64,000 nt of DNA from Lophium mytilinum. Lineage: Eukaryota. Location of the stretch: assembly GCA_010093605.1 (NCBI GenBank), contig MU004188.1, positions 685,673-749,672 on the forward strand, given 5' to 3'. Positions within the stretch are counted from its first letter, which is position 1; every line of letters starts with the position of its first letter. The notes below the pieces were generated by a model. The model ran no database searches, was not told the DNA's origin, and was given only the letters and a program-made list of their open reading frames with translations. This document shows positions 10,372 through 57,963 of the stretch, in pieces. A program made the translations under genes and the position numbers.

Positions 10372-11926
10372 ATGCCTCCCAAGAAGGCCGTGAAGGAGGA
10401 GAAGATTCTGCTGGGCAGGCCGGGCAACAGCTTGAAGAGTGGCATCGTATGTAGGAAACCATATCCGCAGATGTTTCAAGTCCTTACCCTGACAGTGATT
10501 TCAGGTTGGCCTGGCGAACGTCGGAAAGTCCACGCTGTTCCAAGCCATCACGAAGTGTCATCTTGGTAACCCTGCCGTAAGTCTTCACTGCCCACAGCAT
10601 TTGCGCAACCAGCTGACCGGCGTGGCAGAACTTTCCCTATGCTACCATCGACCCTGAAGAAGCTCGTGTCATTGTGCCCGATGAGCGATTCGACTGGCTA
10701 GTCGACCACTACAAGCCCAAATCTGTCGTGCCCGCCAACTTGACCGTCTACGATATCGCCGGTCTAACGCGAGGCGCTTCAACTGGAGCTGGTCTTGGCA
10801 ACGCTTTCTTGTCGCACATTCGTGCCGTCGATGCCATCTTCCAGGTCGTGAGATGCTTCGACGATGCCGAGATCATCCACGTTGAGGGTGACGTAGACCC
10901 CATCCGCGACTTGGAGATCATCAGCGACGAACTCCGGATCAAGGACATCGAGTTCACGGAGAAGGCTCATGAGGCAATTGTCAAGCAGACCCGGAGAGGT
11001 GGCCAGAGCCTGGAGATGAAGAAGCTTAAGGAGGAGCAAGCTACCATCGAGAGGATCTTGGAGATGCTCAAGGACGGCAAAGACGTCCGGAAAGGCAACT
11101 GGAGCCCGAAAGAGGTAAGCACTGAGATTTCCATCTGCACATCCCACCGAACCCCTTGCCATATGATGACAAAGAGCGATTGCTCTATAATCCCAGCTCT
11201 CTAATGGCCTCACGTACGCGTAGAGGCTACTTGATTAGAAGTCCAAACACTGATTTGCAACCATTCATACAAACATAGTCTCGTATATCGGTAGTAGCAC
11301 TCCGCTAATACATGATCTTTAGGTCGAGGTCATCAACCCTCTCTTCCTTCTTACAGCTAAGCCTGTTGTCTACCTCATCAACCTCAGCGAGAAGGACTAC
11401 ATTCGCCAGAAGAACAAGCACCTTCCCAAGATCGCGCAATGGATCAAGGAGAACGCGCCAGGCGACCCAATCATCCCCATCTCTGTCTGCTTCGAAGAGC
11501 GTCTGTCGCGATTCGAGACCCAGGCCGAGGTCGACGAAGAGTGCAAGACCATTGGCGCGAAATCTGGCCTTCCTAAGGTCATTGTGACCATGCGAAAGGT
11601 TCTCAATCTCGGCAGCTTCTTCACGACTGGTACGGATGAAGTGCGGCAATGGACATTACGCAACGGGACCAAGGCTCCTCAAGCTGCTGGTGTCATTCAC
11701 GGAGGTAAGATGTGCCATAAATTCAGACATTACTCTATATACTGACACAATCGTAGACTTCGAGAAGACCTTCATTCAAGTGATTGTCTACAACTTCAAC
11801 GTGTTGAAGGAGGAGGGCGACGAAGCTACGGTGAAGGCCAAGGGCAAGGTGCTGACCAAGGGCAAGGACTACATTGTGGAGGACGGTGATATTCTGCTCA
11901 TTAAAGCCGGAGCGGCAAAGGCCTAG
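10372..11926 (+). CDS. OLA1: Obg-like ATPase 1 (YchF/Ola1)
   Basis: [12 protein letters not shown] (split by an intron), [24 protein letters not shown] and [11 protein letters not shown] motifs; introns start near 10448, 10577, 11115 and 11706. Confidence 0.97.
11156..11260 (+). ncRNA. Intronic box C/D snoRNA, probable snR69 orthologue (25S Cm2948 guide)
   Basis: Inside the 208-nt OLA1 intron 11115-11322: C box ATGATGA 11163-11169, D' CTAA 11201-11204 preceded by AATCCCAGCTCT, C'-like TTGATTA 11231-11237, D box CTGA 11250-11253, terminal TTGC/GCAA stem. Confidence 0.8.
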
Positions 11927-31622: not shown

Positions 31623-33094
31623 ATGTCAGTCAACAATCGTAGCCCTATTGCAAAGCCCGCGGAACCAAAGCCGCGGAAGCTGAGAGCATCTTGTGATGCA
31701 TGCTCGCGTGCTAAGGTGAAGTGTGATAAGGTCAGGCCTACATGCCATCGGTGTGGAAATATGGGGATATGCTGTAACTACTCCCCGTCAATGAGGTAAG
31801 TCATTCATATTGTCTCTAGGACCAAGAGCTAAAATGCGTTAGGCTAGGCAAGCCTCGAAAGAATCGAAGCATAGACATGTCACTGATCCGCGACGTATCT
31901 CCGGCAAGCTCCTGTGGAGCCTTCGGGTCACGGCTCGACATGAGATCACGAACCGCATCGTCTACAGCAGAGAGCTCACCTGAGCCGATTGATTCATTCT
32001 TCTTCGGACCAAATACCCCAGAGTATCCCTACCAAGACGCGTTTATGGCCGGGTTCAATAGCCGCTATTCGCCAGAAACCACCACCGGCCCTAGCTTGCC
32101 CGGATATCACACCGAAGATCTCTTTCTGACTCCGTCGTCAGAGCCGCTATTTAGCAGTCCTCTGTCCCACTTCCCGCCCTCTTATCACACCGGGACGCTC
32201 TCTGTTCCCATCACCATGCCTGGCCACTCCGCGCAGTTCACAACGCCCCAAACCATGCACCATCCCATGTCATCCCAAGCACCAAACCACTACTCCTCCT
32301 CTGACGACCAATCCTACTTCACCTCAAAATACATGACCGAGCCGACTGCAATGACAGGCCCTTGTCCCCTCCCAACCCCAGACCCAGCGCCCACCTCGAC
32401 GCCACACGCCCGCGACCACGACTGCACCGAATTCGCCTTCTCCACCCTCAGCAACCTCTACGCACCACCCTCCTACCAGCCCTCCGCCGCCGACTTCGGC
32501 GCTGCCGCCGGCCTGCCCACCCTCGACTCCGTCCTCGCCACCAACAAGGACGCCGTCGAGAAAGTCTCGGTGCTGCTCGGCTGCCCCTGCTCCACGAACC
32601 CCCACTACAGCACCACCGTCGCCTTCACCATCATCAAGATCCTCGCGTGGTACCAAGCCGTCGCGGGGCTGGGCTCGCCCCACAACGCCGTCTCCGCTTC
32701 CTCCGCCGCCGCCGACGGGACCGCGAGCAGCGGTGGGCCCCTCGAAGCGTTTACGGCGACGCCTATCGCGCTCGGCGCGTTCCAGCTCGACGGCGAGGAC
32801 GAGGCGCGCTTCCGGGCGCAGGTCGTGCTGGGCGAGCTGCGCCGCGTGGAGAAGCTGGTTGATAAGTTCAGCGACCGGTACTGCAAGGCGGCGGCGGGTG
32901 CGCGGGAGAAGATGGAGCAAGGGGGTGGTGCGGCTGGGGGCGTGTATGGGAGCTTGGAGACGCTGTTGCGGACGCGGGTGCGCGAGACGGTAGCGATGAC
33001 GCTTGGGGGTGCGGCGGAGGATGTCAGACGGCAGTGGCAGCAGGCGCAGGTGATGGGGCGGCGGAGGGGGGAGGGGTGGGGGGTTGAGGTGTGA
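31623..33094 (+). CDS. AflR-type Zn(II)2Cys6 transcription factor
   Basis: Exon 1 KLRASCDACSRAKVKCDKVRPTCHRCGNMGICCNYS; intron ~31796-31842; C-terminal AflR-like region (LDSVL..N..LL.CPCS, IIKILAWY, QVVLGELRRV). Confidence 0.92.
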
Positions 33095-48818: not shown

Positions 48819-51800
48819 CGCTACGTCACTCAAAACCCAGCTGTGCCCTTATGGTGTGAACAGCAAAGAAGAAAGACCTTCACGCCGTTCGTGCACCTTA
48901 CGGACCTCATGCGACAAGAAGCTAGGCGCGACCGATCTCTCAACGATTGGAGCCTGCGCAAACATGCCAAGTACAGCCCATGATGAAACCTCCCAGACGA
49001 ATCTCCGATCTTGAAATCAAACTGGATCACCTTCGCACGAATGGCGCCGCGGAAGAGGAAGCGCAGATCAAGGCTATGCCCCCGTGTGAGGGCCTTGAGA
49101 GGAGGCGGGCTACGACAAGAATGATATGGACCTCTTTCATTCTCTAGTTGACGTGCGATGATACTGAGTTGATGGTACTTAGGGACCTTGAGGTGCTGTT
49201 AGTGGAGCAGTCTAGCTAATGCATACGAAATGGCATTGGAAGGTACGATTGTTGCAGCCCCTCCCCTTCCCTCACTCCCATCAAACACTGATAACGCATG
49301 CAGACTACTTTCACGGGGGACAATATCCGGGGCGAATTATTGGTTCGTATTCGCTAGGCTACGGCAGTCCTTGAAAGAATTCGCTCCCGACGCGGCCGTT
49401 CATCATTTTTGGCGATATCCTAGACGCGATCAGTCTTGGCTACCTCTCGATGATCTTCCCGAGGAGAAAAATGGCGCAGGTGGGTTCCGGCTAGTACGAA
49501 TCCCTTCCGCAAGCTCTTTTCAAGTGCTAAATCCTGTACAGGCTGTACAATTTAGCTTTGTGCTATATACTTTCCCTCAACTTGATATAGCTCGTCTGTA
49601 TATATGGACTATGGACTGCGGGTTCCCAGCGTAGCCGACTCTGGCAATACATGATCCGACGAAGAGACCAATGTGCAGACAGCCAGAGTAACATCTCAAC
49701 CACGCTGAAACAACAGACCGCGAACCTAACCACACTACGAACGTACAGATATGCAAAGATCATATCTTCGCTATCCGACTGAACGACGTTCATGCAATTC
49801 GAAGTCTTGCCCATTCACCATCACCGAGCTCGTCCATCGTTTCATGTATTGGCATCTTGGATGGAAAGAGGCCGAATGGATCCTGGAGGAAAATCGGATC
49901 GAATTGGGGCAATATCTCGAATACCAGTGCGCGGTGTTCTTCGCAGCGGTCCACCTAGCTGAACGAGGATGTGATGGTCTTGGACATAGCGAGCTTGGCG
50001 AGAACGACAGCGACGGCGACGTGGGCTTCGACAAAATCAACGAAACCTAGGAAGCACGACTGTTGGCGACGAAGAGCCTACTGTTACCTTGCCATGCGGA
50101 TCTAATGAACCATTACCCGAGAGCATCAACCACCACGGAATCGGCGGTATAGAAGTTCGGAGGCTTGGGCTAGCTAATGCCTACGAAATCACCGGCGGAG
50201 ATTTCACTCTCATAGCTCAGGAGCGACCAAAGGCTCTCGCGAAGAAGGGCAAGTCTCAGCCCAGACACTGAGGGAGAACTTGAGACTTGGAGAGAAGGCC
50301 ACGTGATAGCTCTACTGCTGACGTACCGACTTTGCCGACACACTAACCCCGCTACGAAAAGCCTTGACAGATCCCTAGCTGGTACGAGTGCAGCGACGAT
50401 GACAAGAAGAACTTGACATGCAGCTTTTCAAGTCACAGGGCTCAACAGGAATTCGACTTCGTATTGGCTGTACTTTGCATACTTGCGGCAATGTCCAAAT
50501 AGTCGAAATGTACACATTCGCACCTGCCAACATCAAAGGAAGTGTTGGCTCTGCTTTGAAGACGACCCAGGCGTGGACAAACGACTTCTGGAGCCATGCG
50601 CTTGAGTTGGTCGAGGACGAAAACCACCACGTTGCCCCAGCCGATGATTCCAGAGCTTAGTACCCAAAAGACGAAAAGTCTTCATGAATACCAAAAGCAA
50701 CTTGGAAGACCTATGCAGCCACTGTCTGGAAAAACCCTCAATGACCAACTGTTCACAGGGACACTTCAAAATCGGCTAGGGACCAACCCGATCACGGTGT
50801 GCCGACTTCTTCGATCGCCATTGACTTTGGCTATTAGTCGGGTCAGCGCATCGCTCAGCTGGACCCTGGGTCCATTGGCAGCTGCAAGCATCATGAGTTA
50901 GCATAGTGCTATTGGGACTCTCATATATGACTATATACGACACACCGAAACGACTATATACTACACTTTATTCACTGTATATCTCGCCTCACCATCAAAT
51001 CAAGGAGTCAACATGTCAGGACGGCGACGAAAGATTGTACTGGGGCTGGAGAGAAGTGCACGTTTTGCAAAATCAAAAAGAAGGAGTGCGACGTCGCCAC
51101 AGAATGGTGAATAGAGGCCAGTCTCGCCCGTAGTCACAGGCTTTCATGGCAGGGAAGTGGACCACGTATGTGCGAGCGGTGGACGGGAGATGAATGGAAT
51201 GGCGTTGTCGTCTCTTTGATTCTTACCACAAGAGGGCTAGATATGTATCCGGCCAGACGGAAACAAAAACCACCACACATGATAATCATGCTCATTAGTG
51301 CTGGCCGAATGTTGCTTGGAGGACGAGACCTTCGCCTGGGAGACCGAACTACCGTACAGAGTCTAAGCAACACGAGCCATCTTCGTAATCTGTACAAGGT
51401 TACGGGAAATCGGAGACTCTAAAATGGAATGGTCGCCGCCTTGGTCCGCCTCGGTTCAGAACTTTGCATCCCCGGGTTGGTAGGACAGGGCCCTATGCGA
51501 TTCCTTCTTCTGTCAAAGTTTTATATCTTTACGCGGCCCGCATATAACTCGCTATCAAAACCAGTACACACGAAGAGAAGAACGACTCAGTGAAATGGGA
51601 GTTCCGCCGCCGGTCCTTTCGGAACCGAAATTCAGAAACCGATGCCTGTTTCCCACCAAAGCCCAGTCAATCTACGAAGAAAGCGACTATACGACTAGCA
51701 AGCAGGATTGTATAGTGCTCACTAATGATCTGCACCGACCATATAACCAGTACTATTCGGAGAGATAACCTTGCCTTGATTCAATCGAGAGAAGCGGATA

Positions 51801-53172: not shown

Positions 53173-53925
53173 ATGCCGCCCCCAAAACCCCACCAACGCA
53201 CCTCCAAAACCCCCGCCCCAAACCCCCCCACCGAAAGCCCCAACTCCACCCTCTTCTTCTACATGCCCGACGAAAAACCCTACGGCCTCTTCTGCCAATG
53301 GCACCCCTCCCCCTTCACCGTCTCCACCTCCGCGCTCGTCTGGCTGCTCACCGAAGGCCCCCAACCCCCCTCCTTTTCCGACACTACCACAATGATAAAC
53401 GGCGAGCCGGCTGACCCCCTCGTCGCTGCCTCAAGGGAGCTACCCATTCTTGCCACTAGCAAAATAAACTTCAACTGCGCCGAGCAGTTCATGATGTTCG
53501 CGAAAGCGTTGTACTTCAGCGACTTCCGCACCGCCGTACGGATCATGGATTCGAAATCGCCGAAAGAGCAGCAGGCGCTCGGCGCGGCCGTTGCAGGGTT
53601 CTCGTCGGAGCGGTGGGGGCATGTGAAGGCGGGGCATGAGCGGATGGTGAAGGAGCGGGTGGTGGAGCAGGGGAATTATTGCAAGTTTACGCAGAATCGC
53701 GCGTTTAGGGAGGTGTTGCTGGGGACGGGGGAGCGGGAGCTGGCGGAGGCGGGGAGTAAGGATCGCACGTGGGGGATTGGGTATACGGCGAAGAACGCGG
53801 AGCGGTATAGGAGTTATTGGGGACAGAATTTGTTGGGGAAGTGCTTGATGAGGGCTAGGGGGTGGATTAGGGAGGATGTTGCGAAGAGGGAGGAGAGTAG
53901 AGGGGGAGGTGGTACCAAGAGATAG
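53173..53925 (+). CDS. NADAR (YbiA/DUF1768) family protein
   Basis: Intronless; FCQWHPS, AEQFMMFAKA, NYCKFTQN, LLGTG.RELAEA, DRTWGIG and WGQNLLG motifs. Confidence 0.92.
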   Translation: MPPPKPHQRTSKTPAPNPPTESPNSTLFFYMPDEKPYGLFCQWHPSPFTVSTSALVWLLTEGPQPPSFSDTTTMINGEPADPLVAASRELPILATSKINFNCAEQFMMFAKALYFSDFRTAVRIMDSKSPKEQQALGAAVAGFSSERWGHVKAGHERMVKERVVEQGNYCKFTQNRAFREVLLGTGERELAEAGSKDRTWGIGYTAKNAERYRSYWGQNLLGKCLMRARGWIREDVAKREESRGGGGTKR

Positions 53926-54078
53926 GATAGGGAAACGACATGCCTTTCGTTCTAGCTATAGCGATTCTGTTATATGATGCTAGACTTCGCTTGACGACTT
54001 GACGAGATTTTGGTTCTTACGTTAGTGAATGAACGCCCCAGCAATCACATATAATGCCCATTATTTCCCCCGACTCTC

Positions 54079-54198
54079 GCCCTAAGGGGTGTCTGCCTGT
54101 TGAGCGTCTGACCAGCGAACTCATTCGGGCATTCGGTCATATAGTAAAAACCGCCTTGGCAAGGGGCGGTATTCGTAGGGCTTCGGCCTGAGCTTTTT
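54079..54198 (+). ncRNA. Putative Pol III structured ncRNA, array unit 1 (most diverged)
   Basis: CATATAA at -31, 5' hairpin GCCCTAAGGGGT, CCGCC/GGCGG hairpin, GGC-TTCG-GCC hairpin, T5, downstream GGTTCGATAC at 54219; no clear A box. Confidence 0.55.
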
Positions 54199-54461
54199 GT
54201 TCCCCCTTACGGGTTCAGGGTTCGATACGCGTGCCCGCCAGGTATTTCTTTTTGTCGAATGCTTTCTTGGTCACCACGTGATGGCCGGGGGACTACAACT
54301 TTCACTTGAACGACGTGCATGGTTTCCAGGCTTGTGTGCTGCCATTGAACGGGAACAAGATGGAGAATGTACGTACATACATACCTGACACTTCTCCGCC
54401 GTGTGAGTATATCAAGTCGAAATACACAAGTAGATATACGCCACTAATCACCGCCACCTTC

Positions 54462-54603
54462 GCCTTTCGGGGCCTGCTCACTTTCGAGTGATGCAGTGGG
54501 GTCGGGCCTATGTGGGCTGGGCTCCAACAACGACCGAAAGGTCGACAAAAAACCCCTTTGGGTGCACCAGGGGGTTTTTAGTAAGGCTTCGGCCTGAGTT
54601 TTT
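54462..54603 (+). ncRNA. Putative Pol III structured ncRNA, array unit 2
   Basis: TAGATATA at -31, GCCTTTCGGGGC, TGATGCAGTGG, conserved 3' hairpins, T5, GATTCGATCC at 54613. Confidence 0.65.
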
Positions 54604-54737
54604 ACTGTCGAGGATTCGATCCGCATGAGCGAGTAGATTGGATGTTCCTTTTTGCTAACGGGATTTATTGCATCATATCTTTTTTCGGCCTGTGGAACTA
54701 TCCAGGTATATATACACTTCAAGCCACCGCTACCTTC

Positions 54738-54873
54738 GCCTTTCGGGGCCTGCACACTTTCGAGTGGCGCAGTGGGTCGGGTGCAATTCCACTCAGCTCT
54801 GTCGACCGAGAGGTCGTAAAAAACTCCTTGCGTGCACCAAGGGGTTTTTAGTAAGGCTTCGGCCTGAGTTTTT
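54738..54873 (+). ncRNA. Putative Pol III structured ncRNA, array unit 3
   Basis: TATATATA at -31, GCCTTTCGGGGC, consensus A box TGGCGCAGTGG, conserved 3' hairpins, T5, GGTTCGACGC at 54890, then T8. Confidence 0.7.
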
Positions 54874-55016
54874 GGCTATCTCATAGGAGGGTTCGACGCG
54901 CGTAAGCGGGTCCGCAGTTTCTTTTTTTTCGCCAACTGGATATCTCACATCTCATCTTTTTTAGCTGCATGTAGAAGTATCCAGGTATATAGACACTCCA
55001 ATTCGCTGCTGCCCTC

Positions 55017-55111
55017 GCCCTACGGGGCACCACTTGCGCAATGACGCAGTGACCCGAAGAACCCCTTGCGTGCAACAGGGGGTTTTCGTAGGGCTTCGGC
55101 CTGAGCTTTTT
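55017..55111 (+). ncRNA. Putative Pol III structured ncRNA, array unit 4
   Basis: TATATAG at -31, GCCCTACGGGGC, TGACGCAGTGA, conserved 3' hairpins, T5, GGTTCGATCC at 55133. Confidence 0.65.
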
Positions 55112-55251
55112 GCTCTTTCAAAGAAGGGATAGGGTTCGATCCGCATGAGCGGACTGGTATCTTCTTTTTGCGGATTCGGATATCTTACCCTTCATTTCCC
55201 TGCTTGTGCAACTATTCAAGTATATAGACGCTCCGATTCGCCGCCGCCTTC

Positions 55252-55364
55252 GCCGTTCGGGGCCTACAGCCGATTTTGGTGCAGTCATGCGAGAGAAATC
55301 CCGCCTTCAGAAAGCCCCTTGGGTGCAACAAGGGGTTTTCGTAGGGCTTCGGCCCGAAGTTTTT
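55252..55364 (+). ncRNA. Putative Pol III structured ncRNA, array unit 5
   Basis: TATATAG at -31, GCCGTTCGGGGC, TGGTGCAGTCA, conserved 3' hairpins, T5, AGTTCGAGAT at 55383. Confidence 0.6.
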
Positions 55365-55543
55365 GCTCTTCTGAATACCGCGAGTTCGAGATGTAGACGA
55401 GTGAGAAAAGGTTCTTCTTTTTTGCAGATAGATAGAATTTTAACTAAAAGAGTATAAGAGATAAAGAGTTTAAGAGAGAGTATGAGCCACCATGCTTACT
55501 CATACTGTGAAGTCTTTGATTTCAATATCGTACCACGCATCTC

Positions 55544-57963
55544 TCAATGAATGCCCTCCAAAAACGCAACCAACCGCTTCTTAATCACCACCCCAACCAA
55601 CGCCCCAGTCCCCTCCTCCACCACACACAGGTGCCGCAGACCCAGCTTCCCAAACATCTCCACCGCATACTCCACCGGCGCCGCCGCGCACAGCGTGATC
55701 GGCGTGCGATCCACGAACGGCGTGAGGTCCATCACCGTCTCCGCCTCATGCTCTTCCTCATGCGGACCACCCAACAGCCTCACCTCCGCATCAGCCGCGT
55801 ACACCGAGCCCAGCGCGTCCGGCTTACTGGAGAGCCCAAACGCGAGCTCGCCTTCCGCAATGTAGCCCTGCAGCATCTGCACGCTCGTTCCGGGAAGCGC
55901 CTGCACGAGCACGAGGCCCGCGTCCATAAGGCCCCTCGCGTGAAGCTGATCGAGCTTCTTTTGCAGCAGCACGCGAGGGACTTTGTTGCTCGGCGGCACT
56001 ACGACCGTGATCTCGTCCATTGTCTGCTTCGGCGGTACGAGTTCCTGCACTAACCGACTCTCTTTTCGTACGAGTAGCGTTGCGTGATCGGCGTCGAGAA
56101 ACGGGTGTCCTAGTACCGTCTGCGCGAGGTCGTATACTCCCTCCGATGAGATGGCGTCGGCGACCCATTTCGCGACTAGGATTGCGATCATGTGTGGGAC
56201 GATGTACTCGAGTTCGCCGGTGAGCTCGAACATGATTACGCAGAGGGAGATGGTCATGCGGGAGACGCCGGCGAGGAAGGCGGCTGCGCCTACCATCGCG
56301 AAGATGCCGGGGGAGATGGTGCCGATAGATTGGCCTAGCAGGCGGCCAAAGAGAGCGCCAGCGTCGAGGGCGGGGATGATCACGCCCGAGGGGACTTTGC
56401 AGCCGAAGGTGATGATCGTGAGGATGAGTTTGGTGAGGGTGCCGTAAGTGAGCCAGCCGACGTAGACCCAGCGCGCGGAAGTGCTTGAGGCAGCGTCGGC
56501 TTCGTGTGTGCAGACCCAGGAGCTGGCTGACTTGGGGGAACGACAGTCTACGAGGAGGTTCTTGATGATTGTGTCGCCTGGTTCTCGCGTCAGGGGATTG
56601 GGGTACTGAAGTAGAGTGGTGGCGAGAACGACGAGGAAGACTTCGAAAACGGGGTGGTTCTTGATGAGGCCGTAGCTGCGGAACCATTTCGACCACTTGA
56701 AGTTTGCTTTGCAGAAGATGCCACCGAAGATGCCGCCCGCGATTCCTAGCACTACGAAGACGACGTAGTGGATTGGTGAGTATGAAGTGCCGTAATTAGT
56801 CTCGAAGAGAACGAGTTTTCCTGTGCCCGTGGGATTAAGTGCTTTCAAGACCATCGCTGCGAAGAGTGAGCAGAGAAAAGCGCGCCAGAGGACTTTGCGT
56901 GGGAAGTATGTGCTGATTTCTTCGTAGCTGAATAAGACGCCGCCGATAGGTGCACCAAAAGCGACGCTGAGGCCTGATGCACACGCAGCGGAGAGTAGCT
57001 CTCGCATTTTGCGGCCATTCTCTCGGTATTTGGGAAACCAATTGCCAACAATGTAGCCCACGCAGGTAGAGATATGCACGAAAGGACCTTCTTTGCCTAG
57101 ACACATGCCTGTAGCAACGGCGAAGATGGCACCGAAGCCTTTGACAACGAGAACCTTCAGGTCCAGGAAGTTGGGGATCACAAAGCCGGAGAGAATGGTC
57201 TTGATCTCTGGGATACCGGAGCCAGCGGCCATGTACATCGATTTCCCAGCCGGCTGCGATTTGGACTTTGTGTCGTGAGGCTTGCCTGCCTTCCCTGGTG
57301 CTACAGCTGGCAACGAGCTTTTCGTGAGCATAGTTGCGCTGGAGCTGATAAGGCCGAAAAGCAACGCCCATGCTACGTAGATGGCAAATGAGGCCCAGTA
57401 ATTCTCCGACCATAGTTGGAAATGCTTGCATTGGTCTCCAATCTCGGATTGAATTCCAAGGAGAGGGGTCTTATCCTCGCAGCATGCTTCGCGATTTAGC
57501 AGTGGATTCCTGGTGCAGTAGCCCAACTTCCAGTCCGAGACAGTTGCTTCGGCCACATCCACGACAAACGCTACACAAGCCGTAAGCGTTCCTATAATCA
57601 TCACGGCAATCCATCCAGAAGAGGCTTCGAAGAGAGAAACGAGCTCGTAGCGGAGGCCTTTCCGAGATTTGATATAGCGGAACCGGTACGAATCTTTTAC
57701 CTATGAACTATCAATGCCTGCGAGTTTGGACAGCGGGAAGAGATTACCAAATCATGTAACCAGTCAATGGTCGTATAGTCGTTGTACGGCAATCTTTCCC
57801 CAACCGTACTGCCGGCCATTTGCTGCTCTTCCTTCGTAACAGCAGACGAGATGATAGACTGAGCCTCGTCCTCATGCTGCAGATGGCTCAATCTGCGATT
57901 GTTCGCAGCATGGGAGAGGAGATGCGTCCGCTCTGTTGCGGATTCGACGTCCGTAGAAGGCAT
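55544..57963 (-). CDS. CLC family chloride channel/antiporter
   Basis: DYTTIDW, GSGIPEIK, GKEGP, FGAPIGGVLF, GVIIP and C-terminal CBS motifs; intron ~57701-57748. Confidence 0.97.

What the first reader, a model, noticed from the sequence alone, without database searches (positions are those of the whole stretch)
54048..55423. Tandem array of five structured, Pol III-type ncRNA genes of no recognisable family
Seen: five diverged units start at G 54079, 54462, 54738, 55017 and 55252. Each has a TATA-like element starting exactly 31 nt upstream (54048, 54431, 54707, 54986, 55221) and a 5' hairpin GCC(N)TNNGGGGY. An A-box-like word follows in units 2-5 (TGGCGCAGTGG in unit 3). Each unit then has a long hairpin, (A/C)GTA, an (A/G)GGC-TTCG-GCC(T/C) hairpin, GAG/GAAG and T5, followed by a B-box-like (G/A)GTTCGA or GATTCGA motif 9-21 nt later and a second T run. 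Established: TATA at about -30, an internal A box, a B box and an oligo-T terminator is the layout of fungal U6-type Pol III genes, and the 5' hairpin resembles that of fungal U6. The U6 ACAGAGA core and a tRNA cloverleaf are absent. Inference: these are five independently promoted RNAs of ~95-142 nt (~150-190 nt if read to the second T run), forming a possibly undescribed ncRNA family.
Basis: partly seen in the sequence, partly recalled or inferred. Interest (0 to 1): 0.92.

Follow-up and report, generated by a model that had tools for sequence, protein, structure and literature searches.

The report
Five tandem Pol III-type small-RNA genes
A 1.4 kb gap between two ordinary fungal genes holds five diverged copies of what looks like a self-contained small-RNA gene of the kind read by RNA polymerase III, matching no catalogued RNA family, but nobody has yet shown that the RNAs are made.

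Summary
Five diverged head-to-tail units (57-74% pairwise identity) lie at 54048-55423. Each carries, in the same order:
- a TATA-like word at -31;
- a G start followed by a 12-nt hairpin;
- a long A/U-flanked hairpin, then GUA;
- an RGGC-UUCG-GCCY hairpin, GAG/GAA and exactly T5;
- a TTCGA-core B-box-like word 9-21 nt later, then a second T run.

Four of the five also carry an A-box-like word at +26/+28. These elements are 75-82% identical between units. The RNA centre and the spacer after T5 are only 46% identical.

Rfam (4227 families) and ARAGORN find nothing in the array. The layout matches the yeast U6 gene (upstream TATA, internal A block, B block beyond the terminator), without any U6 sequence.

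New here: assembly contigs of the same genome show at least four more copies of the 3' module at other loci, one with a B-box-like word after its T run. The family is therefore dispersed as well as tandem.

Weak points:
- No run on record as RNA was available, so there is no transcript evidence.
- No fungal genomes could be searched.
- Covariation among five paralogues is not significant.
- Units 2 and 3 carry an internal T5.

Best reading: an uncatalogued, lineage-specific Pol III small-RNA family (confidence about 0.6).

The parts
54048..54055 (+). unit 1 TATA-like word (CATATAAT), -31..-24
54079..54198 (+). unit 1 predicted RNA, 120 nt. 5' hairpin 54079-54090, long hairpin 54150-54170, GUA 54175-54177, UUCG hairpin 54178-54189, T5 54194-54198. 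No A-box-like word. Most diverged unit.
54219..54229 (+). unit 1 B-box-like word GGTTCGATACG, 20 nt after T5
54249..54253 (+). unit 1 second T run (T5)
54431..54438 (+). unit 2 TATA-like word (TAGATATA)
54462..54603 (+). unit 2 predicted RNA, 142 nt. 5' UUCG hairpin 54462-54473, A-box-like TGATGCAGTGG 54489-54499, long hairpin 54548-54579 (holds an internal T5 at 54575-54579), UUCG hairpin 54584-54595, T5 54599-54603.
54613..54623 (+). unit 2 B-box-like word GATTCGATCCG, 9 nt after T5
54649..54653 (+). unit 2 second T run (T5). A third run (T6) starts at 54680.
54707..54714 (+). unit 3 TATA word (TATATATA)
54738..54873 (+). unit 3 predicted RNA, 136 nt. 5' UUCG hairpin 54738-54749, A-box-like TGGCGCAGTGG 54765-54775, long hairpin 54819-54849 (internal T5 at 54845-54849), UUCG hairpin 54854-54865, T5 54869-54873.
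54890..54900 (+). unit 3 B-box-like word GGTTCGACGCG, 16 nt after T5
54922..54929 (+). unit 3 second T run (T8). A third run (T6) starts at 54957.
54986..54993 (+). unit 4 TATA word (TATATAGA)
55017..55111 (+). unit 4 predicted RNA, 95 nt (the minimal form). 5' UACG hairpin 55017-55028, A-box-like TGACGCAGTGA 55042-55052, long hairpin 55058-55086, UUCG hairpin 55091-55102, T5 55107-55111.
55133..55143 (+). unit 4 B-box-like word GGTTCGATCCG, 21 nt after T5
55165..55169 (+). unit 4 second T run (T5)
55221..55228 (+). unit 5 TATA word (TATATAGA)
55252..55364 (+). unit 5 predicted RNA, 113 nt. 5' hairpin 55252-55263, T4 at 55274, A-box-like TGGTGCAGTCA 55277-55287, long hairpin 55310-55340, UUCG hairpin 55344-55355 (G-C outer pair), T5 55360-55364.
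55383..55393 (+). unit 5 B-box-like word AGTTCGAGATG, 18 nt after T5
55418..55423 (+). unit 5 second T run (T6)
53173..53925 (+). upstream neighbour: NADAR-domain ORF (context only, not part of the element)
   Evidence: PF08719, E 1.4e-45
55544..57604 (-). downstream neighbour: CLC chloride-channel ORF (context only)
   Evidence: PF00654, E 6.6e-82

Best explanation
Each unit is an independent RNA polymerase III gene with a split promoter like that of yeast U6.

Inferred mechanism:
- TFIIIC binds the intragenic A-box-like word (+26/+28) and the B-box-like word that lies 9-21 bp beyond the first full T5.
- TFIIIC places TFIIIB on the TATA word at -31.
- Pol III starts at the G and stops mainly at the T5. 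The second (and in places third) T run acts as a back-up stop that shields the next unit.

Inferred product: a 95-142 nt RNA with
- a 4-bp 5'-terminal hairpin (UNCG loop in 4 of 5 units);
- a centre that varies in length and sequence and holds one to three further hairpins;
- a constant 3' module (12-bp A/U-flanked hairpin, GUA, UUCG hairpin, GAG, oligo-U).

The oligo-U tail would bind La, and the closed ends would protect the RNA.

Most likely role: a lineage-specific RNP scaffold or decoy RNA. The constant 3' module would bind a protein and the paralogue-specific centre would give specificity, as in Y, vault, snaR or RUF6 RNA families. The family arose by DNA duplication, both tandem and dispersed.

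What is shown: the sequence anatomy, its conservation pattern, the absence of any known family, and the extra genomic copies. What is inferred: transcription, the polymerase, the RNA ends, and the protein partners and role.
For: Element order and spacing are the same in all 5 units.

Mean pairwise identity by segment (10 pairs):
- 5' hairpin 0.82
- 3' module 0.82
- TATA 0.75
- B box 0.75
- RNA centre 0.46
- T5-to-B-box spacer 0.46
- three inter-unit spacers 0.56-0.69

Within the B box, TTCGA is invariant in the MAFFT alignment while its flanks vary. GCAGT is the only shared word in the otherwise poorly alignable centres of units 2-5.

Structure:
- RNAalifold recovers the 5' hairpin, the long hairpin and the UUCG hairpin as the consensus.
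- 92% of 75 pair cells are standard pairs, against 26-73% when partners are slid by 1-3 columns. 10 of the cells are G-U and would be A-C on the other strand.
- The outer pair of the 3' hairpin is A-U, G-U or G-C in different units.
- The + strand MFE beats the - strand in 5 of 5 units.
- Fold z-scores are -4.4, -3.3, -2.9 and -1.7 for units 2, 4, 5 and 3.

T runs of 5 or more are frequent in the array on the + strand: 20 overlapping TTTTT words in 1.4 kb, out of 70 in the whole 64 kb window.

No Rfam family and no tRNA match.

At least 4 other loci in the same genome keep the 3' module, and one has GGTTCGA 12 nt after its T run.

[quoted passage not shown] U6 promoter elements are variable among fungi (PMC5855946, passages).
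Against: - No transcript evidence: no listed run is on record as RNA.
- Units 2 and 3 carry a T5 inside the long hairpin, 24 nt before the proposed terminator. Units 4 and 5 carry a T4 there, and unit 5 another T4 at +23. These could stop Pol III early.
- Covariation is not significant: 300 of 500 shuffles reach the observed values, and the RNAalifold covariation term is 0. Only one pair changes on both sides.
- Unit 1 lacks the A-box-like word, and its fold is no better than shuffles (z -0.27; 74 of 200 shuffles fold as well).
- The five copies are paralogues in one genome. Shared motifs could partly reflect common descent or gene conversion. Units 2 and 3 are identical over their last 33 nt (contig breaks).
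- No orthologue from another species could be examined.
- The A-box-like word sits further from the start than in tRNA genes (recalled).
Confidence: 0.6

Rival explanations
1. A Pol III-derived repeat without cellular function. It would be either a low-copy SINE-like element or a set of decaying duplicated pseudogenes of some small-RNA gene, spread by duplication or retroposition.
For: - Copies exist at 4 or more other loci besides the array.
- Unit 1 looks degraded.
- Aspergillus SINEs are low-copy and carry degenerate A and B boxes and oligo-T tracts (PMC5063351, abstract and passages).
Against: - There is no tRNA, 5S or 7SL head and no A-rich or LINE-like tail. Units end in T runs.
- The spacers between units are homologous, so the array grew by DNA duplication rather than by insertion.
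- A dispersed copy keeps a B-box-like word beyond its T run, which a retrocopy of the short RNA would lack.
- At 57-74% overall identity, the promoter words and hairpins are kept at 75-82%. This argues for selection on each copy.
Confidence: 0.15
2. Pol II-transcribed snRNA- or snoRNA-like genes. The TATA word would serve Pol II, and the U5 would be an Sm/Lsm-type single-stranded site rather than a terminator.
For: - TATA at about -30 also suits Pol II.
- The first T run is exactly 5 in all 5 units, while the later runs vary from 5 to 8.
- Internal T5/T4 runs are harmless for Pol II.
- Contigs of run X3 (only guessed to be RNA) cross unit borders at 55078-55391.
Against: - The base before U5 is G or C in 5 of 5 units, not the A of the Sm consensus (consensus recalled).
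- No conserved hairpin follows the U5 (0.46 identity there).
- No C/D or H/ACA boxes are shared (by eye), and no Rfam snRNA or snoRNA hit appears at E<=10.
- This reading leaves the invariant TTCGA word and the stack of T runs unexplained.
Confidence: 0.08
3. A DNA-level element. The cluster of five B boxes would recruit TFIIIC as a boundary or insulator between the two flanking genes, like the B-box clusters of fission-yeast boundary repeats (recalled), with little or no stable RNA.
For: - Five TTCGA-core words lie in 1.4 kb between a convergent gene pair.
- The TTCGA core is invariant.
Against: - It does not explain the conserved TATA at a fixed 31 nt from a conserved hairpin.
- It does not explain the strand-specific G-U pairs, the + strand fold advantage, or the 82% conservation of a 55-nt hairpin module.
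- It could coexist with transcription.
Confidence: 0.07
4. Highly diverged members of a known family (a U6 variant, Y, vault or 7SK-like RNA) that the Rfam models miss.
For: - The gene layout is U6-like, with a 5'-terminal UUCG hairpin.
- In the single-sequence folds of units 1 and 4, the 5' end pairs with UAGGGC near the 3' end, giving a terminal stem like Y or vault RNAs.
Against: - No Rfam match to any of the 4227 families at E<=10 in the 1.6 kb region, apart from one noise hit (DLEU2_6, 17 bits against a gathering score of 60).
- No ACAGAGA in the units (read).
- The RNAalifold consensus prefers local hairpins.
Confidence: 0.05

Closest known systems
S. cerevisiae U6 snRNA gene SNR6 (promoter architecture)
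   Same: Upstream TATA at about -30, an intragenic A block, an oligo-T terminator and a B block placed downstream of the terminator. The RNA begins with a stem-loop. Source: PMC5855946 passages, compared.
   Different: No U6 sequence: no ACAGAGA and no Rfam U6 hit at E<=10. The B-box-like word lies only 9-21 nt past the T5, whereas SNR6's A and B blocks are ~200 bp apart, against roughly 90-125 bp start to start here. There are five tandem plus dispersed copies with a hypervariable centre.
Clustered lineage-specific Pol III RNA families: vault and Y RNA gene clusters, primate snaR arrays, Plasmodium RUF6
   Same: Several paralogous ~100-140 nt Pol III-type genes, each with its own promoter, often in tandem, with constant ends and a variable middle. 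snaR: PMC3045588 (search listing and abstract only). RUF6: PMC9670795 (search listing and abstract only). Vault and Y clusters are recalled.
   Different: No sequence or model match to Y_RNA or Vault in Rfam. The consensus fold has separate terminal hairpins rather than a 5'-3' terminal stem. The B box lies outside the short RNA. No partner protein is known.
Aspergillus SINEs (AfuSINE2 and AfuSINE3)
   Same: Low-copy fungal elements with degenerate A and B boxes and oligo-T tracts (PMC5063351, abstract and passages).
   Different: Those derive from tRNA or 5S heads and carry target-site duplications. Here there is no tRNA or 5S similarity, the arrangement is tandem with homologous spacers, and there is no tail.

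Membership tests
U6-type split Pol III promoter (TATA + A block + downstream B block) | TATA element about 30 bp upstream of the start | tested here: met
   TAGATA/TATATA exactly 31 nt before the G in units 2-5; CATATAAT in unit 1.
U6-type split Pol III promoter (TATA + A block + downstream B block) | Intragenic A block (consensus TRGCNNAGTGG, recalled) | tested here: inconclusive
   A word of this type sits at +26/+28 in 4 of 5 units. It matches the recalled consensus fully only in unit 3, and unit 1 has none.
U6-type split Pol III promoter (TATA + A block + downstream B block) | B block (GGTTCGANTCC, recalled) downstream of the terminator | tested here: met
   RRTTCGA 9-21 nt after T5 in 5 of 5 units, with TTCGA invariant.
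U6-type split Pol III promoter (TATA + A block + downstream B block) | Occupancy by TFIIIC, TFIIIB and Pol III; transcripts with oligo-U ends | not testable with these tools
   No run on record as RNA and no ChIP data.
U6 snRNA (RNA family) | Conserved ACAGAGA/AGC core and ISL; match to the Rfam U6 model | tested here: not met
   No U6 hit at gathering score or at E<=10; no ACAGAGA in the units.
tRNA or tRNA-derived SINE | Cloverleaf or tRNA-related head | tested here: not met
   ARAGORN finds 0 genes in the window; no Rfam tRNA hit.
tRNA or tRNA-derived SINE | Target-site duplications and an A-rich or LINE-related tail; many dispersed copies | tested here: inconclusive
   Units end in T runs and share homologous spacers, so they are tandem duplications. 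Four or more dispersed copies were seen, but their flanks could not be fetched.
Sm-class snRNA | Sm site RAU4-6GR between two hairpins (recalled) | tested here: not met
   U5 is preceded by G or C in 5 of 5 units. The sequence after it is 46% identical, without a shared hairpin.
Y RNA / vault RNA | 5' and 3' ends paired in a terminal stem; match to the Rfam models | tested here: not met
   No Rfam hit. The RNAalifold consensus gives separate end hairpins. A terminal stem appears only in the single-sequence folds of units 1 and 4.
box C/D or H/ACA snoRNA | Shared C/D boxes, or H and ACA boxes | tested here: not met
   No snoRNA model hits in the array. CUGA is present before T5 in 4 of 5 units, but no shared C box (read).

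The most novel reading that the evidence does not exclude
A previously undescribed family of nine or more Pol III-transcribed structured RNAs in a filamentous ascomycete. They would be built on a U6-gene-like split promoter, with a constant protein-binding 3' module and a paralogue-specific centre. This would be a fungal counterpart of Y, vault, snaR or RUF6 RNAs, in a lineage where no such family is catalogued.
Probability: 0.4. Interest if true: 0.8.

Novelty: new variant of a known kind. Interest (0 to 1): 0.6.

Why it matters
The catalogued Pol III transcripts of fungi are essentially tRNAs, 5S, U6, SRP RNA and RNase P RNA, plus a few yeast oddities (recalled). A multi-copy, structured, lineage-specific Pol III RNA family in a filamentous fungus would add a new class of fungal RNP.

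The array would also give five natural variants of one promoter design (TATA, A block, downstream B block, stacked terminators). These could be used to study Pol III initiation and leaky termination in filamentous fungi. They may also offer compact native Pol III promoters and terminators for guide-RNA expression.

Tried and rejected
- Whole-genome search: no genome is held for this window.
- Earlier findings of this scan: nothing by place, sequence or words.
- Metagenome scan with GGCTTCGGCCYGARN{0,1}TTTTT: 111 loci. None of the 111 has the GTAR prefix or an RRTTCGA word within 70 nt downstream (script), so all are chance or unrelated matches.
- Prokaryote genome collection scan with the 23-nt motif: 0 matches. 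This shows only that the motif is not bacterial.
- Sequencing runs: no RNA holder listed. X1 and X2 are DNA and are probably the source. X3 is only guessed to be RNA.
- X3 contigs cover 54607-54820 and 55078-55391 at depth 3-5. They do not follow the unit borders, and other parts have no cover. I take nothing from this about expression.
- Bacterial-type promoter/terminator scan: 0 promoters, and 2 terminator-like sites against 1.9 expected. Uninformative.
- Covariance-model hit at 50148-50205(-), 14 bits: read, and it shows none of the motifs.
- Literature: the searches, and the motif-string search (0 papers), found no description of such a family. Passage searches in PMC2377427 (A. fumigatus small-RNA screen) and PMC5640933 (15 fungal RNA motifs) showed nothing resembling it. 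Their supplements were not read. Canzler et al. 2016, on fungal U6 promoters, is not in the library.
- Terminal-stem (panhandle) fold: considered because position 4 of the RNA and the R of GUARGGC change together (C with G in units 1 and 4; U with A in units 2 and 3). Both changes are also neutral in the local-hairpin model, and unit 5 fits neither. Left open.
Full report
**Observation**

The stretch 54048-55423 holds five head-to-tail units on the + strand.

| Unit | +1 G | TATA-like word at -31 | A-box-like word | Length to end of T5 | Gap T5 to B box | Length to end of 2nd T run |
|---|---|---|---|---|---|---|
| 1 | 54079 | CATATAAT (from 54048) | none | 120 | 20 | 175 |
| 2 | 54462 | TAGATA (54431) | TGATGCAGTGG, +28 | 142 | 9 | 192 |
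| 3 | 54738 | TATATA (54707) | TGGCGCAGTGG, +28 | 136 | 16 | 192 |
| 4 | 55017 | TATATA (54986) | TGACGCAGTGA, +26 | 95 | 21 | 153 |
| 5 | 55252 | TATATA (55221) | TGGTGCAGTCA, +26 | 113 | 18 | 172 |

All five units also share the 12-nt word GCCNTNNGGGGY at +1, then GTA + RGGC-TTCG-GCCY + GAG/GAA + exactly five T, then RRTTCGA, then a second T run of 5-8.

This is far beyond chance:
- The 17-mer GTARGGCTTCGGCCYGA (up to 2 mismatches) occurs five times in the 64 kb window, only here. The expectation is 0.01, and 0 of 100 shuffles reached five.
- A covariance model of the 3' module (57 positions, 15 pairs) scores the five units at 64.3-83.1 bits with filters off.
- The next matches (22 bits or less) are mirror images of the palindromic hairpin on the other strand.
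- The best match outside the array (14.2 bits, 50148-50205, - strand) shows none of the motifs.

**How the copies relate**

- Whole units are 57-74% identical pairwise. Units 2 and 3 are closest, and unit 1 is the outlier.
- The spacers between units 2/3, 3/4 and 4/5 are themselves homologous (56-69%). The array therefore grew by tandem DNA duplication, not by separate insertions.
- Divergence is uneven (mean of 10 pairs):

| Segment | Mean identity |
|---|---|
| 5' hairpin | 0.82 |
| 3' module | 0.82 |
| TATA word | 0.75 |
| B-box word | 0.75 |
| RNA centre | 0.46 |
| Stretch between T5 and B box | 0.46 |

- TTCGA is invariant in the MAFFT alignment while its flanks change.
- GCAGT is the one word kept in the otherwise poorly alignable centres of units 2-5.
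- I read this pattern as selection on promoter-like words and on two structured RNA ends. With five paralogues in one genome, common descent and gene conversion remain partial alternatives.

**Structure**

- RNAalifold, run on the five predicted RNAs without guidance, returns exactly three shared helices: the 4-bp 5' hairpin (loops UUCG in three units, UACG and UAAG in one each), a 12-bp hairpin flanked by an A run and a U run, and the 4-bp UUCG hairpin.
- On the model-fitted alignment, 92% of 75 pair cells are standard pairs, against 26-73% when partners are slid by 1-3 columns. Ten cells are G-U, which would be A-C mismatches on the - strand.
- The + strand folds better than the - strand in 5 of 5 units.
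- Fold z-scores against dinucleotide shuffles are -4.43, -3.26, -2.85, -1.70 and -0.27 for units 2, 4, 5, 3 and 1.
- Covariation is weak. Only the outer pair of the 3' hairpin changes on both sides (A-U, G-U, G-C). 300 of 500 column shuffles do as well, and the RNAalifold covariation term is 0.
- By eye, unit 1 also flips one C-G pair to G-C in the long hairpin once its 5' arm is shifted by one column. The automatic alignments did not make this shift, so I do not count it.
- Units 2 and 3 carry extra hairpins in the centre, capped by UUCG and by GAAA/GAGA loops. Unit 4, at 95 nt, is the minimal form.
- An alternative fold pairs the 5' end with UAGGGC near the 3' end. It appears in the single-sequence folds of units 1 and 4 and stays open.

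**What it is not**

- Rfam 15 at gathering thresholds finds one family in the whole window: the C/D snoRNA Afu_304 at 11159-11256.
- At E<=10, the 1.6 kb around the array gives only a noise match (DLEU2_6, 17 bits against a gathering score of 60, E = 3).
- ARAGORN finds no tRNA in the window.
- The units have no ACAGAGA, no shared C/D or H/ACA boxes, and no A before the U5 as an Sm site would need (consensus words recalled).
- There is no tRNA, 5S or 7SL head and no A-rich tail. This differs from the tRNA- and 5S-derived low-copy SINEs described in A. fumigatus (PMC5063351, abstract and passages).

**Promoter reading**

- The order (upstream TATA, internal A block, terminator, B block beyond the terminator) is the one described for the S. 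cerevisiae U6 gene.
[quoted passage not shown] The same review notes that U6 promoter elements vary among fungi (PMC5855946, passages).
- The start is a G preceded by C, 31 nt from the TATA word.
- The + strand of the array is crowded with T runs: 20 overlapping TTTTT words in 1.4 kb, out of 70 in 64 kb.
- Each unit has a second T run, and units 2 and 3 a third, before the next TATA. This fits back-up terminators between closely packed Pol III genes.

Complications for this reading:
- Units 2 and 3 have a T5 inside the 3' arm of the long hairpin, 24 nt before the proposed terminator.
- Units 4 and 5 have a T4 there, and unit 5 another T4 at +23.
- Either T5 is a leaky stop in this organism, which the stacked T runs would suit, or units 2 and 3 give shorter RNAs.

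**New finding: more copies elsewhere**

Laying the assembly contigs of two DNA runs that hold the stretch (X1 and X2, probably the source of the window) showed contigs from other loci that match only the 3' module:
- one at 54838-54873 (2 differences);
- one at 55078-55112 (2 differences);
- one at 55331-55366 (3 differences);
- a fourth inferred from a loose end at 54849.

Their unmatched flanks continue with an A-run/hairpin arm upstream. In one case GGTTCGA follows 12 nt after the T run, and in another the 3' hairpin has a UUAG loop with a G-C outer pair.

The family therefore has at least nine members, dispersed as well as tandem. A B-box-like word beyond the T run is kept outside the array, which a retrocopy of the short RNA would not carry. 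These contigs could not be fetched, so copy number, flanks and target-site duplications remain unknown.

**Context**

- The array fills the gap between a NADAR-domain ORF ending at 53925 (+) and a CLC chloride-channel ORF at 55544-57604 (-).
- The rest of the window holds ordinary fungal genes: Tim44, mitochondrial S11, SGT, Leo1, Mob1, an AflR-like regulator and 14-3-3. No transposon domains were seen.
- G+C content is 51% in the array and 53% in the window.

**What could not be done**

- No genome is held for the window.
- The metagenome scan gave 111 unrelated matches, 0 with the flanking signature.
- The prokaryote collection gave 0 matches.
- No run on record as RNA was offered.
- Seven literature searches and a motif-string search found no description of such a family. 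This covers only the held library, and supplements were not read.

**Verdict**

The sequence anatomy fits five independent U6-layout Pol III genes for a structured 95-142 nt RNA family that is in no catalogue, with further copies elsewhere in the genome.

Transcription, the polymerase, the RNA ends and the function are inferred. I put 0.6 on this reading. The rivals are:

| Rival reading | Confidence |
|---|---|
| Functionless Pol III-derived repeat | 0.15 |
| Pol II snRNA-like genes | 0.08 |
| TFIIIC-binding DNA element | 0.07 |
| Diverged known family | 0.05 |

Noticed in passing
window 11159-11256 (+): Rfam match to the C/D box snoRNA Afu_304 (39.1 bits, gathering score 35). This is the only Rfam family found in the window, and it points to a relative of Aspergillus.
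   Followed up: no
other loci of the same genome (contigs of runs X1/X2): At least four dispersed copies of the 3' module lie outside the window. Their long-hairpin loops differ from the GUGCA(A/C)C loop shared by units 2-5, which suggests subfamilies.
   Followed up: partly
window 53708-53751: A G-rich stretch in the C-terminal part of the NADAR-domain ORF also matches a contig from another locus of the genome (6 differences in 44 nt), so it is a short repeated or low-complexity segment.
   Followed up: no
window 54680-54685 and 54957-54962: A third T6 run sits in the spacers after units 2 and 3, about 27 nt past the second T run. The homologous place after unit 4 has lost it.
   Followed up: partly
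window 54623-54631, 54900-54908, 55143-55151: Just after the B-box-like word, units 2, 3 and 4 keep a small CGC-(AUGA/GUAA)-GCG hairpin. It would be part of the RNA only if transcription reads through to the second T run.
   Followed up: no
window 31820-33094 (+): An ORF with an AflR (aflatoxin-regulator type) domain (PF08493, E 4e-22). It may mark a secondary-metabolite gene cluster.
   Followed up: no
window 54444-54755 (-): A 103-aa open frame on the opposite strand spans units 2-3. It is most likely a by-product of the repeat, and it was not scanned against protein families.
   Followed up: no
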